From Escherichia coli (GTDB lineage Bacteria; Pseudomonadota; Gammaproteobacteria; Enterobacterales; Enterobacteriaceae): a stretch of 46,566 nucleotides of DNA. The position numbers are program-made. This document shows positions 6,001 through 9,000 of this stretch, piece after piece; the stretch's first letter is position 1; each line of letters begins with the position of its first letter. The DNA lies in assembly GCF_003334355.1 (NCBI RefSeq), contig NZ_QOWP01000029.1; one strand, given 5' to 3'.

Positions 6001-9000
6001 TCATTACTGGCATCCATTGATCTGTCAGAAGAAAGTTCAGGAAGCAGACATGATTGCTCCCGGCATCCCGTCATTATCAGAGAGGATGCGGGAGGATGCC
6101 ACTTTAATTAACTAGTTATTAACATTAAAAAGATGGCTTACGCTTTCGGCTAACGTTGTCGTTGGGTGGCCAATCAATTTGCTAAGTGTTTTGCTGTCAT
6201 CAAACAGACCGCCTTTCGATGCGCCAACGTCAGAATCCGCCAGCATATCCGCCAGTCCGTCGGGCAGTCCGACGCTTTTCAGTGCCGCGGCGAAATCGGC
6301 TTCGCTCAGATTTTGATAGGTAACCTGTTTGCCGCTCTGTTTGGTCAGCTCTGCCGCTAACTGTGTCAACGTCCAGGCACTATCGCCCGCCAGTTCGTAA
6401 ACCTTGCCTTCGTGACCGGCTTCGCTAATCACGCGTGCCGCAGCTGCCGCATAATCTGCCCGCGTTGCTGAGGCGATTTTGCCATCGCCCGCCGCACCGA
6501 TAAATACGCCGTGTTCCAGTGCTGCCGGGGCGCTGGCGAGGTAGTTTTCGCTGTACCAGCCGTTGCGCAGCAGGGTGTAAACGATGCCAGAATCAGCCAG
6601 CATTTTCTCCGTCTCGATGTGCTCATCGGCGAGGCCGAGCGGGGAGGTATCTGCATGTAGCAGGCTGGTATAAGCGATAAATTTCACGCCAGCCGCCTTT
6701 GCGGCATTAATAACATTACGATGCTGCGGGGCACGTTGACCCACTTCGCTGGAAGAGATCAGCAGTAGTTTTTCCACTCCCTGAAGTGCAGATGTCAGTG
6801 CGGCTTCATCGCCGTAGTCAGCCTGACGCACGGTAATGCCTTGTGCTGCCAGGGCCTGGGCTTTTGCCGGATTACGAACGATAGCCACTATTTGGCTGGC
6901 AGGAACCGTTTTCATCAAGGATTCAATAACATAGTGACCAAGTTGGCCAGTGGCACCAGTAATAGCGATCATGGGAAGTCTCCATCGTTTTGTCTTGTGT
7001 TTAAATACGCTAACACCTAAACTTACTTTTAGTAAGTACGCACAAAAAGGTAAGTATGGAATGAGTCAGGTTAGCCTGTCGCAACAACTGAAAGAGGGTA
7101 ATCTCTTTGCGGAACAGTGCCCGTCGCGCGAGGTGTTGAAACACGTCACCAGCCGTTGGGGGGTGTTGATTCTGGTGGCGCTACGCGAAGGTACTCATCG
7201 CTTTAGCGACCTGCGGCGCAAAATCGGCGGGGTGAGCGAAAAGATGCTTGCGCAGTCGTTACAGGCGTTAGAACAGGATGGTTTTCTTAACCGTATCGCG
7301 TATCCGGTGGTGCCGCCGCATGTGGAATATAGCCTCACGCCGCTGGGCGAGCAGGTGAGCGAAAAGGTTGCTGCACTGGCGGACTGGATTGAGTTGAATT
7401 TGCCCGAGGTGTTGGCGGTGCGGGATGAACGTGCGGCATAACTGCCGGCTGCGCTTATCCGGCTTACGGTTCATGACTTGTAGGGCGGATAAGATGCGCC
7501 AGCATCGCATCCGACAAAAGTGCCGGATGCGGTTGATGATTTATAGGCCGAAAAAGAAGTGTATTACTTACTCAAATCCACCTGATAAATCGCAAACCCG
7601 ATATCATCGGTCGCGACTTTATTCATCGGATATTGCCCTTTCTCTTTAATAAACGCCGCGGCTTTATCTGATGGAGAGGTTTCGAAACGGATATCCAGTT
7701 TCTTATCGCCAGCTATCGGTGCTAAACGCCAGTTGTTATCTGCCGCCGGGTGAATTTCCCCCGCACGTTTCGACTCATCAGCAATCCACGCTGCCAGCAC
7801 CGAGCGGTTCTCATCCGGTGAAGCAAAAGCGATATGGCTGTCGCCCGTACCGGCAAATTTGCCGCCGTAAGCGCGATAGTTATTGGTGGCAACCAGGAAC
7901 ATGGCGTTCGGATCAATCGGCTTGCCATTAAAGGTCAGGTTCTTAATCCTTTCCGCATTGGCATTAACCATCTGGCACTCGCCGTCATAACGGGCAGGCT
8001 GGGTAACATCAATCTGATAATTCACACCATCAATCACATCAAAGTTATAGGTGCGGAAACCATCCCAGTTGATGAGTGACTGTGGTTTCGTGTTGTCAGG
8101 ATCAATCTGGTTAAACTGTCCGGCGGAGCACTCCAGCCACTCTTTCACCTCTTTACCGCTGGCTTTCACCACAATCAGCGTATTGGGGTAGAGATAAAGA
8201 TCGGCGGCATTACGGAAGGTCAACTGGCCTTTTTCCACCTCCACATAGCTTGCCGGATCATTTTTGCGACCACCAACTTTAAACGGTGCAGCAGCTGAAA
8301 GCACCGGCAGTTTTGCCAGATCCGGATCGCCCTGCACCAGCGCCAGATAGCTATACATATTGTCGGCGGATTTACCGATTGGCTTGCTGACGAACTGGCG
8401 TGTGGCATCGTGATCGGCTTTGAGTGTTTCTACCAGCTTGCTGTCTTCCGCCGCGAGGGATTTTTTATTGGCGATGTCGTAAATCGGCCGTGCTTCCGCT
8501 TTCGCCTGCGTCACCTGCCATTTACCGCTGTTATTACTGAGTTGTAAGTCGACCACCCCAAGATGATCGCCCCACATGCCCGGCATTACCGCCGGAACAC
8601 CATTCAGCGTGCCTTTCGCGATATCAGCCCCTTCGATATCAGCAAAATCTTTACCTGGGAAAACGGCGTGAGCATGGCCAAACATAATGGCGTTAACGCC
8701 AGGAATTTCACTGAGGTAATAAACTGAGTTTTCCGCCATCACTTTATACGGATCGGCAGATAGCCCGGAATGCGCCAGAACGACAACGACATCGGCACCT
8801 TTCTCGCGCATTTCAGGCACGTATTTGCGCACGGTTTCGGTAATATCATTCACCGTCACTTTTCCGGATAAATTAGCTTTATCCCAGCCCATGATTTGCG
8901 GCGGCACGACGCCAATATAGCCAATCTTCAGCGTCTGTTTTTTTCCGTCTTTATCGACCACTTCGGTATCTTTAATTAAATACGGTGTAAACATTGGCTG

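What the first reader, a model, noticed from the sequence alone, without database searches (positions are those of the whole stretch)
6973..7060. GTAAGT-based palindrome and a third repeat copy in the qorB(ytfG)-ytfH divergent region
acttac-tttta-gtaagt (7021-7037) is an inverted repeat, and gtaagta recurs at 7051-7057, within 10 bp of the ytfH start codon. YtfH is an HxlR-type winged-helix regulator divergently transcribed from the quinone oxidoreductase gene, an arrangement typical of a local regulator and its target. These repeats are a plausible YtfH operator controlling both genes.
Basis: partly seen in the sequence, partly recalled or inferred. Interest (0 to 1): 0.4.

Follow-up and report, generated by a model that had tools for sequence, protein, structure and literature searches.

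The report
Conserved YtfH operator between qorB and ytfH
The repeats are real and belong to a 35-bp, four-part DNA site conserved from E. coli to Actinobacteria; it is almost certainly where the uncharacterised regulator YtfH binds to switch off the neighbouring quinone reductase gene qorB, an ordinary mechanism but not yet described for this E. coli regulator.

Summary
The window is E. coli. The palindrome is present, best read as 7-3-7 (ACTTACT-TTT-AGTAAGT, 7021-7037). In one sequence this is near chance level; the case rests on conservation. Across 79 enterobacterial qorB-ytfH spacers, block 7020-7058 is as conserved as first and second codon positions (0.95 majority fraction against 0.63-0.64 at third positions), while the qorB-proximal half varies freely. 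Orthologues at 51-69% identity, including Rhodobacter and the actinomycete Jiangella, keep the half-sites and their exact spacing while the spacers change. The "third copy" is one arm of a second dyad (ACGYAC-N6-GTAAGT) that abuts the first. Site 1 overlaps a predicted extended -10 promoter of qorB (-35 inside the palindrome) and the predicted ytfH -10. YtfH is an HxlR/DUF24 protein with one invariant cysteine (Cys20); QorB is an NmrA-type quinone reductase. A 2025 preprint reports that ytfH knockdown derepresses qorB (log2FC 4.6), states that no binding data existed and names no operator. RNA-structure rivals fail. This is a new member of a known kind (YodB/QorR-type thiol-sensing repressors). 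Binding, transcription start sites and the inducing signal remain untested.

The parts
6112..6972 (-). qorB (ytfG) coding sequence, an NmrA-type NAD(P)H:quinone oxidoreductase and the presumed regulated target
   Evidence: ORF; RefSeq annotation; Pfam NmrA PF05368 at 5.6e-24; identical in length to PDB 2ZCU/2ZCV 'oxidoreductase ytfG' at E=2.7e-180.
7061..7441 (+). ytfH coding sequence, an HxlR/DUF24 winged-helix regulator with a single cysteine (Cys20)
   Evidence: Pfam HxlR PF01638 at 7.2e-32; Salmonella orthologue solved as PDB 1YYV; Cys20-Pro21 invariant in 12 diverse homologues.
7021..7037 (.). Operator site 1: dyad ACTTACT-TTT-AGTAAGT, made of half-site H1 (7021-7026, ACTTAC; ACTAAC in most genera), a 5-bp spacer and half-site H2 (7032-7037, GTAAGT)
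   Evidence: In alignment A1, G18 and A21-T23 within H2 are invariant and C8, T9, A11 and C12 of H1 are at least 90% conserved, while spacer columns 13-17 vary (TTTTA, TTTTG, TTAAA, CTTTC, AAAAG, CATGC). L098 changes both arms together (ACTATC / GATAGT).
7038..7056 (.). Operator site 2: imperfect dyad ACGCAC-AAAAAG-GTAAGT(A), made of half-site H2' (7038-7043; ACGTAC in K-12), a 6-bp spacer and half-site H3 (7050-7055).
   Evidence: A24, C25, A28, C29, G36, T37 and A39 are invariant in A1. H2-to-H3 spacing is 18 bp in every lineage. H2' is a perfect ACTTAC in several lineages, e.g. GTAAGTACTTACCTAAAAGTAAGT. 71 of 75 ytfH/qorB-adjacent metagenome hits carry both H2' and H3, against 0 of 45 unrelated palindrome hits.
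7007..7015 (-). Predicted extended -10 of the qorB promoter (TGTTAGCGT on the minus strand); predicted start near 7000
   Evidence: TGnTAnnnT is present at this aligned position in 78 of 79 sequences although the intervening letters vary. It is the best minus-strand sigma-70-like site in 58 of 78 (conservation pattern). No experimental start site was found.
7030..7035 (-). Predicted -35 of the qorB promoter (TTACTA on the minus strand), lying inside site 1
   Evidence: It sits 17 bp upstream of the predicted -10. This is inference from sequence only.
6995..7023 (+). Predicted ytfH promoter TTGTGT-N17-TAAACT (-35 at 6995-7000, -10 at 7018-7023); the -10 overlaps H1 and the predicted start is near 7030
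   Evidence: The best plus-strand site is at 7018 in 18 sequences including E. coli, and at 7023 (TTGTGG-N17-TAACTT) in 45. It is weak, and the tool's stricter consensus scan found nothing. Inference only.

Best explanation
Window 7021-7056 is the operator of the local repressor YtfH. It consists of two abutting dyads built from one half-site (GTAAGT / ACTWAC). Site 1 is H1-N5-H2 (7021-7037). Site 2 is H2'-N6-H3 (7038-7055). Each dyad would take one YtfH dimer, with the recognition helices in successive major grooves. Site 1 lies over the -35 of the qorB promoter and the -10/+1 of the ytfH promoter. Site 2 lies just upstream of the qorB -35 and in the early transcribed region of ytfH. Bound YtfH would therefore shut off qorB and limit its own synthesis. 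By analogy with YodB, QsrR and QorR, modification of the single invariant Cys20 (by quinone S-alkylation or oxidation) would release the protein and induce the quinone reductase QorB. Shown here: the element's existence, architecture, conservation and exclusive association with ytfH. Shown by others: qorB derepression when ytfH is knocked down. Inferred: physical binding, two-dimer occupancy, promoter positions, autoregulation and the Cys20/quinone signal.
For: Conservation: block 7020-7058 has a mean majority fraction of 0.951, with 27 of 39 columns at least 97% conserved. Third codon positions of qorB and ytfH score 0.64 and 0.63, with 1/49 and 1/45 such columns. Architecture persists while spacers vary, in orthologues at 51-69% identity with a divergent NmrA-family gene wherever the contig reaches it. 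These include Rhodobacter capsulatus and Jiangella gansuensis. Specificity: 75 of 120 exact-palindrome hits in metagenomes are next to ytfH and/or qorB; 71 of those 75 have H2' and H3, against 0 of 45 elsewhere. The element stays with ytfH when qorB is lost (L053 intact; L042 has the perfect palindrome ACTAAC-TTTTA-GTTAGT). Family fit: YtfH is HxlR PF01638. Published family operators are dyads of the same size: HypR 7-2-7 and YodB TACT-N7-AGTA, which TACTTTTAGTAAGTA matches. A YodB-like gene (best PDB hit 5HS7) carries two copies of ACTTACT-N3-AGTAAGT upstream. Position: the conserved TGnTAnnnT for qorB occurs in 78/79 with its -35 inside site 1. Function: CRISPRi of ytfH raises qorB by log2FC 4.6, and qorB was differentially expressed only in that perturbation (bioRxiv 10.64898/2025.12.20.695731). 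Sensor residue: Cys20-Pro21 is invariant and aligns with HypR Cys14 by coordinates and with the HxlR cysteine.
Against: No binding experiment exists; the preprint itself says YtfH had no binding data. No experimental transcription start site was found. The promoters are weak matches that a stricter scan missed, so the overlap with the operator is a prediction. The CRISPRi effect was seen in only about 4% of cells. dCas9 sitting near a divergent promoter could itself disturb qorB expression. Site 2 has a 6-bp spacer against 5 bp in site 1, and its left arm is degenerate (ACGCAC in this window), so occupancy by a second dimer is uncertain. Part of the block's invariance within Enterobacteriaceae may come from overlapping promoter, Shine-Dalgarno and start-codon constraints. 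The inducing signal is entirely by analogy.
Confidence: 0.82

Rival explanations
1. The conserved block acts as RNA: a hairpin in the ytfH 5' leader (H1 pairing with H2, or H1+U-tract pairing with A-tract+H3), or in a qorB leader, controlling translation or stability.
For: The arms can pair. The minimum-free-energy fold of the plus strand pairs ACUUACUUUU with AAAGGUAAGU. On the H1.H2 stem a few sequences change both sides, and 86% of cells pair.
Against: Folding energies are not better than shuffles (z = -1.6, -0.8, -1.3, +0.6). The central pair of the H1.H2 stem is unpaired in 20 of 30 sequences with no compensating change. The long H1.H3 stem does not beat shuffled controls on any of the covariation measures (72-132 of 500 shuffles reach the observed values). 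The A-tract becomes a T-tract in L082, which destroys that pairing. The invariant columns A24, C25, A28 and C29 would be unpaired. Rfam has no hit above threshold. If the predicted start sites are right, H1 is not transcribed into ytfH mRNA.
Confidence: 0.04
2. The block is conserved for reasons other than YtfH: it is the binding site of a different protein, or simply the overlapping core promoters, Shine-Dalgarno sequence and start codon of two closely packed genes.
For: The spacer is an RNA polymerase holoenzyme SELEX site. Predicted promoter elements, the ytfH Shine-Dalgarno sequence and, in many genera, the start codon fall inside the block. These would add constraint within Enterobacteriaceae.
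Against: Promoter or ribosome-binding constraints do not predict four copies of one hexamer in dyad arrangement at fixed spacing. They also do not predict retention in GC-rich Rhodobacter and Jiangella, where the distance from H3 to the start codon differs. The qorB ribosome-binding region in the same spacer is conserved only at its Shine-Dalgarno core. The element co-occurs specifically with ytfH-type genes and persists without qorB. Knockdown of ytfH itself derepresses qorB.
Confidence: 0.08
3. YtfH binds here but works as an activator or dual regulator, as its relatives HypR and HxlR do, rather than as a simple repressor.
For: HypR activates hypO from an upstream site while probably repressing its own gene. 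HxlR is an activator. Site 2 lies at about -37 to -56 of the predicted qorB promoter, a position compatible with activation.
Against: Knockdown of ytfH increases qorB, which is the opposite of what loss of an activator would do. Site 1 covers the predicted -35 of qorB, which is a repressor position.
Confidence: 0.05

Closest known systems
QorR-qor2 of Corynebacterium glutamicum (DUF24/HxlR repressor of a quinone oxidoreductase; Ehira et al. 2009, J Biol Chem)
   Same: A DUF24 regulator that represses a quinone oxidoreductase and senses oxidants (summary in PMC3351151). From my own memory of the paper, not verified here: the two genes are divergent, QorR also represses itself, and its lone cysteine (Cys17) is essential. 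That would match the single Cys20 of YtfH and the divergent layout. Some source annotations already name enterobacterial YtfH 'QorR'. An actinomycete orthologue (Jiangella) carries the same element.
   Different: The primary paper is not held, so I could not compare its footprint with GTAAGT. I also could not confirm that qor2 is NmrA-type or that QorR is orthologous to YtfH rather than merely a family member. Nothing has been shown biochemically for YtfH.
YodB of Bacillus subtilis and QsrR of Staphylococcus aureus (quinone-sensing DUF24 repressors)
   Same: HxlR-type fold with a conserved N-terminal cysteine that is alkylated by quinones or oxidised. They control quinone reductases and nitroreductases. 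The YodB site is TACT-N7-AGTA, with HTH motifs in consecutive major grooves. The window's TACTTTTAGTAAGTA fits that pattern, and a YodB-like gene in L178 has the identical ACTTACT-N3-AGTAAGT palindrome twice.
   Different: YtfH is only distantly related (E=8.8e-10 to 5HS7). It has one cysteine, whereas YodB uses Cys6 with Cys101/Cys108 for disulfides. Its target is NmrA-type, not an azoreductase. It appears to control a single locus rather than a regulon. In most enterobacteria the left arm is AACT, not TACT.
HypR (YybR) of Bacillus subtilis
   Same: DUF24 protein with a 7-2-7 dyad operator. The box is present both at the target gene and downstream of its own promoter. Sensing is through Cys14, which aligns by coordinates with YtfH Cys20.
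   Different: HypR activates its target on oxidation. YtfH behaves as a repressor of qorB. The half-site sequence differs (GTATCAA against GTAAGT).

Membership tests
HxlR/DUF24 (YodB/QorR-type) thiol-sensing repressor with its operator | The regulator carries the HxlR-type winged-helix domain | tested here: met
   Pfam HxlR PF01638, E=7.2e-32, residues 29-115. PDB relatives are 1YYV, HxlR, HypR and YodB.
HxlR/DUF24 (YodB/QorR-type) thiol-sensing repressor with its operator | A conserved N-terminal sensing cysteine at the start of helix 1 | tested here: met
   Cys20-Pro21 is invariant in 12 homologues at 45-100% identity. It aligns with the HxlR cysteine and, by coordinate offset, with HypR Cys14. 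Whether it actually senses anything was not tested.
HxlR/DUF24 (YodB/QorR-type) thiol-sensing repressor with its operator | The operator is a 15-17 bp dyad with half-site centres about 10-11 bp apart | tested here: met
   Site 1 is 7-3-7 (equivalently 6-5-6), 17 bp long. Compare HypR 7-2-7 and YodB TACT-N7-AGTA.
HxlR/DUF24 (YodB/QorR-type) thiol-sensing repressor with its operator | The operator overlaps the promoter of the regulated oxidoreductase gene and of the regulator's own gene | tested here: inconclusive
   Predicted promoters overlap site 1, and the TGnTAnnnT conservation (78/79) is persuasive. However, no experimental start site was found and the consensus scan was negative.
HxlR/DUF24 (YodB/QorR-type) thiol-sensing repressor with its operator | Loss of the regulator derepresses the target | not testable with these tools
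   Reported by others: CRISPRi of ytfH raises qorB by log2FC 4.6 in about 4% of cells (bioRxiv 10.64898/2025.12.20.695731). It has not been confirmed with a clean deletion.
HxlR/DUF24 (YodB/QorR-type) thiol-sensing repressor with its operator | The purified regulator binds the site, and binding is lost on quinone, diamide or oxidant treatment in a cysteine-dependent way | not testable with these tools
   This needs EMSA or footprinting. The preprint states that no binding data existed for YtfH.
QorR-qor2 module (orthology, not just analogy) | A divergent pair of a DUF24 regulator and a QOR2/NmrA-type quinone reductase, with a single-cysteine regulator | tested here: inconclusive
   The window side is met: NmrA PF05368, PDB 2ZCU/2ZCV ytfG, and one cysteine in YtfH. 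The C. glutamicum side could not be retrieved.
Cis-regulatory RNA (any Rfam family) | Match to a curated covariance model, or a stable structure supported by covariation | tested here: not met
   The best Rfam hit is 17.9 bits against a gathering score of 41. Fold z-scores range from -1.6 to +0.6. The central pair is broken in 20/30 sequences.
Extended -10 sigma-70 promoter (for qorB) | TGnTAnnnT with a start site about 7 nt downstream | tested here: inconclusive
   The motif is conserved in 78/79 at 7015-7007 on the minus strand. The start site is unverified.

The most novel reading that the evidence does not exclude
One half-site code (GTAAGT in paired dyads) is shared by HxlR/DUF24 quinone or electrophile sensors across phyla: YodB-like genes in Firmicutes, the QorR lineage in Actinomycetota, and YtfH in Alpha- and Gammaproteobacteria. 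On this reading YtfH-QorB is E. coli's undescribed single-cysteine quinone/electrophile sensing switch, with a two-dimer, four-half-site operator controlling both divergent promoters.
Probability: 0.4. Interest if true: 0.55.

Novelty: new member of a known kind. Interest (0 to 1): 0.4.

Why it matters
YtfH is one of the remaining E. coli transcription factors with no known binding site. This work gives a base-resolution, testable operator (four half-sites, two dyads), a predicted promoter layout and a candidate sensor residue. It also explains mechanistically the recently reported derepression of qorB. Conservation across phyla suggests that an ancient regulator-operator-reductase module has kept its DNA recognition, which is useful for annotating many HxlR-NmrA pairs. 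It does not reveal a new kind of mechanism.

Tried and rejected
The simple sigma-70 consensus scan of 6850-7200 found no promoter, so I used a weighted scan across 79 aligned sequences instead (one search was a script error). Rfam at a permissive threshold gave only a chance-level Trp_leader hit. Searches for experimental start sites failed: Thomason 2015 is not held, the Kim 2012 supplements have no entry by gene name or coordinate, and the Conway 2014 supplements are not held. The primary YodB/CatR and QorR papers are not held. A search for 'YodB' plus 'TACT' was swamped by irrelevant hits. 'YodB' plus 'GTAAGT' gave one irrelevant paper. 'HxlR' plus 'NmrA' gave nothing relevant. The first homologue search queue was full, and the repeat listed only close relatives, so distant orthologues came from the 50%-representative library. 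I considered and dropped, by eye, CRP and MarA/SoxS/Rob boxes: the letters they would need (GCAC at 7040-7043) are not conserved. I also considered CTAAC at 7010-7014 as a fifth half-site. I rejected it in favour of the -10 reading, because its fourth letter varies freely and A7007, C7014 and A7015 are conserved. A genome-wide scan of E. coli for further sites was not possible with these tools. The metagenome scan gave no second exact site in enteric DNA.
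Full report
WHAT IS THERE. The window is Escherichia coli. A 1.6-kb stretch around the finding matches all 5,426 complete E. coli genomes, and RefSeq annotates ytfF, qorB, ytfH and cpdB there. qorB occupies 6112-6972 on the minus strand and ytfH 7061-7441 on the plus strand, leaving an 88-bp spacer at 6973-7060. K-12 coordinates are window + 4,427,052. The sequence reads ...CTAAACTTACTTTTAGTAAGTACGCACAAAAAGGTAAGTATGGAATG. It is best described as 7-3-7: ACTTACT-TTT-AGTAAGT.

IS IT MORE THAN CHANCE? From this sequence alone, barely. The specific palindrome is unique in the window. However, the window holds 34 perfect 7-bp-arm inverted repeats against about 23 expected. The combination of a palindrome and a further arm copy within 30 nt occurs once against 0.2 expected. 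GTAAGTA occurs 4 times against 2.0 expected. The case therefore rests on comparative evidence.

CONSERVATION IN ENTEROBACTERALES. A protein-based search of species-representative genomes did not select on the motif. It returned 80 ytfH loci from about 30 genera, including Proteus and Morganella. 78 of them keep a divergent qorB with an 84-105 bp spacer. In the spacer alignment the qorB-proximal half varies freely. The block CTwACTTTTAGTAAGTACGyACAAAAAGGTAAGTATGAAA is almost invariant. Window columns 7020-7058 have a mean majority fraction of 0.951, with 27 of 39 columns at least 97% conserved. Third codon positions of qorB and ytfH score 0.64 and 0.63, with 1/49 and 1/45 such columns. First and second codon positions score 0.89 and 0.94. 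The variation that does occur is informative. The left arm is ACTAAC in most genera and ACTTAC in the E. coli/Citrobacter/Salmonella group. The downstream copy switches between GTAAGT and GTTAGT in some Citrobacter, which is the same A/T wobble at the equivalent half-site position. In Proteus and Morganella the central spacer changes (TTTT to AAAA or TAAA) while the arms stay.

CONSERVATION BEYOND THE FAMILY. Representatives at 50-69% identity were traced to their contigs. Every one paired with a divergent NmrA-family gene, or truncated before that gene could be seen, carries the element in exact register. Examples:
- GCTTAC-TTTTG-GTAAGTAC-GCAC-TTTTTG-GTAAGT (L082)
- GCTGAC-AAAAG-GTAAGTAC-CTAC-AAAAAG-GTAAGT (L086, a marine sample)
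- GCTATC-AAAAC-GTAAGTAC-CCAC-ATTCTT-GTAAGT (L091; the cluster is Rhodobacter capsulatus)
- GCTAAC-CATGC-GTAAGTAC-GTAC-CTTGAG-GTAACT (L093; Jiangella gansuensis, Actinomycetota)
Both spacers change freely while the hexamers and their distances do not. Two homologues at 52% and 49% identity lack a divergent NmrA gene and lack the motif (L089/90 and L096/97). In a 30-sequence ungapped alignment (A1; column n = window 7014+n) the invariant columns are C12, G18, A21-C25, A28, C29, G36, T37 and A39.

ARCHITECTURE: TWO DYADS, NOT A PALINDROME PLUS A STRAY COPY. The invariant AC..AC directly after H2 (7038-7043; ACGCAC here, ACGTAC in K-12) is a degenerate ACTTAC. With H3 it forms a second inverted repeat with a 6-bp spacer. 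In several lineages this fourth element is a perfect ACTTAC, for example GTAAGT|ACTTAC-CTAAAA-GTAAGT and L098. The element is therefore H1-N5-H2|H2'-N6-H3, 35 bp in all (7021-7055).

SPECIFICITY. An exact-pattern scan of metagenomes for site 1 returned 120 loci. 75 of them are next to a ytfH and/or qorB homologue at 51-100% identity. 71 of those 75 also have H2' and H3 in register, while none of the other 45 has both. Those 45 are unrelated AT-rich or repetitive DNA, as expected for a 15-base pattern in so large a collection. No second site from enteric genomes appeared.

TWO NATURAL EXPERIMENTS. In L053, qorB has been replaced by co-directional genes and the whole element is intact. In L042, qorB is also gone. 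There site 1 persists and is in fact perfect (ACTAAC-TTTTA-GTTAGT), while H2' and H3 have decayed. The element therefore follows ytfH, not qorB. The L042 case is a single observation, but it hints that site 2 matters mainly for qorB.

THE PROTEINS. YtfH is an HxlR-family winged-helix protein (PF01638, 7.2e-32). The Salmonella orthologue is solved as 1YYV, and more distant solved relatives are HxlR, HypR (YybR) and YodB. It has one cysteine, Cys20. The Cys-Pro pair is invariant in all 12 aligned homologues. It aligns with the HxlR cysteine and, by coordinate offset, with the sensing Cys14 of HypR. QorB is NmrA-type and corresponds to PDB 2ZCU/2ZCV 'oxidoreductase ytfG'.

PROMOTERS (PREDICTED). 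In the variable half of the spacer, the only conserved letters are A7007, C7010-A7012, C7014-A7015 and G6999-T7001. On the minus strand the first three groups spell TGnTAGnnT, an extended -10. TGnTAnnnT is present in 78 of 79 sequences; the 79th is a truncated locus. It is the best-scoring minus-strand sigma-70-like site in 58 of 78. Its -35 (TTACTA, 7035-7030) lies inside site 1, and the predicted start is near 7000. On the plus strand the best site has its -10 at 7023 (TTGTGG-N17-TAACTT; 45 sequences) or 7018 (TTGTGT-N17-TAAACT; 18 sequences, including E. coli). Both overlap H1. The spacer is also listed as an RNA polymerase holoenzyme SELEX site (PMC3946193). I found no experimental start site, and a stricter consensus scan was negative, so this layout is inference.

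LITERATURE. In the held library YtfH is listed only as an uncharacterised factor. The exception is a December 2025 preprint (bioRxiv 10.64898/2025.12.20.695731). Its supplementary note 6 reports that CRISPRi of ytfH gave a log2 fold change of 4.6 in qorB, in about 4% of cells. qorB was differentially expressed only in that perturbation. For the family, YodB and CatR are released by quinones and diamide, QorR represses a quinone oxidoreductase and senses diamide and H2O2, and HypR uses a 7-2-7 dyad (PMC3351151). YodB prefers TACT-N7-AGTA, with its HTH motifs in consecutive major grooves (PMC8063818). The window's TACTTTTAGTAAGTA fits that pattern, although most enterobacteria have AACT on the left. 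QsrR Cys5 and YodB Cys6 are alkylated by quinones (PMC6798810). One metagenome hit, L178, is a gene whose best solved relative is YodB (5HS7, 4e-19). It is divergent from a nitroreductase-like ORF (weak hit). Two tandem copies of ACTTACT-N3-AGTAAGT lie upstream of it.

RIVALS. An RNA hairpin is unlikely for six reasons:
- Fold energies are no better than shuffles.
- The central pair of the H1.H2 stem is broken in 20 of 30 sequences without compensation.
- The H1.H3 stem does not beat shuffled controls on any covariation measure.
- The A-tract becomes a T-tract in L082.
- The invariant AC..AC would be unpaired.
- Rfam has nothing above threshold.
Promoter and ribosome-binding constraints surely add to the invariance within Enterobacteriaceae. 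They cannot explain four copies of one hexamer at fixed spacing in GC-rich Rhodobacter and Jiangella, where the distance to the start codon differs. An activator role is contradicted by the knockdown phenotype.

VERDICT. The element is a conserved composite operator of two dyads and four half-sites. It is most probably bound by YtfH to repress qorB, and probably ytfH as well, with Cys20 as the likely sensor of quinones or oxidants. This is a new member of a known kind (YodB/QsrR/QorR-type systems). It is not surprising to a specialist, but it gives a precise, testable site for one of E. coli's uncharacterised regulators. Binding, start sites, two-dimer occupancy, autoregulation and the signal remain to be shown.

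Noticed in passing
window 9172-9174 (minus strand), within cpdB (about 7564-9444): cpdB carries a premature stop in this strain. K-12 has ...YMSAKGLKAGD... where the window has ...YMSAK*LKAGD... (Gly91 to TGA), so the longest remaining ORF is 476 aa instead of 647. cpdB is probably a pseudogene in this strain.
   Followed up: partly
window 7445-7550: REP-type repeats (gccggatgcgg / ggcggataag motifs) lie between the convergent ends of ytfH and cpdB. They probably explain why the 1.6-kb query gave a median of two BLAST places per genome.
   Followed up: no
window 7056-7064: The ATG inside GTAAGTATG (7056) opens only a two-codon ORF (ATG GAA TGA) that overlaps the real ytfH ATG at 7061. Most other genera have one more A (GTATGAAAATG) and start at the first ATG, giving 128-aa proteins. 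E. coli seems to have shifted its start codon through a 1-nt deletion.
   Followed up: partly
window 7041 and 7059: The window's allele of the element (C7041 in half-site H2', G7059) is a minority form. Only 31 E. coli records match at 99% or better, against 4,746 at 95-99%. K-12 has T and A at these positions, which makes GTACGTAC a perfect 8-bp palindrome. 7041 is also the one freely varying (Y) position of the block across genera.
   Followed up: partly
L042 2440-2490 and L053 2440-2490: In two enterobacterial genomes qorB is replaced by co-directional thiol:disulfide-interchange-like genes. L053 keeps the whole element. L042 keeps a perfect site 1 (ACTAACTTTTAGTTAGT) but has lost H2' and H3.
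   Followed up: partly
L178, about 85 nt upstream of a YodB-like gene: Two tandem copies of ACTTACT-N3-AGTAAGT lie between a YodB-like HxlR gene and a divergent nitroreductase-like ORF in an AT-rich contig. These are the same half-sites as in E. coli, which suggests a recognition code shared across phyla.
   Followed up: partly
window 7018-7028 across loci L001-L080: The A/T difference in the left arm (ACTTAC or ACTAAC) goes together with which predicted ytfH -10 scores best (TAAACT at 7018 or TAACTT at 7023). It also goes with a 5-bp shift of the best -35. The promoter may have moved relative to the operator between clades.
   Followed up: no
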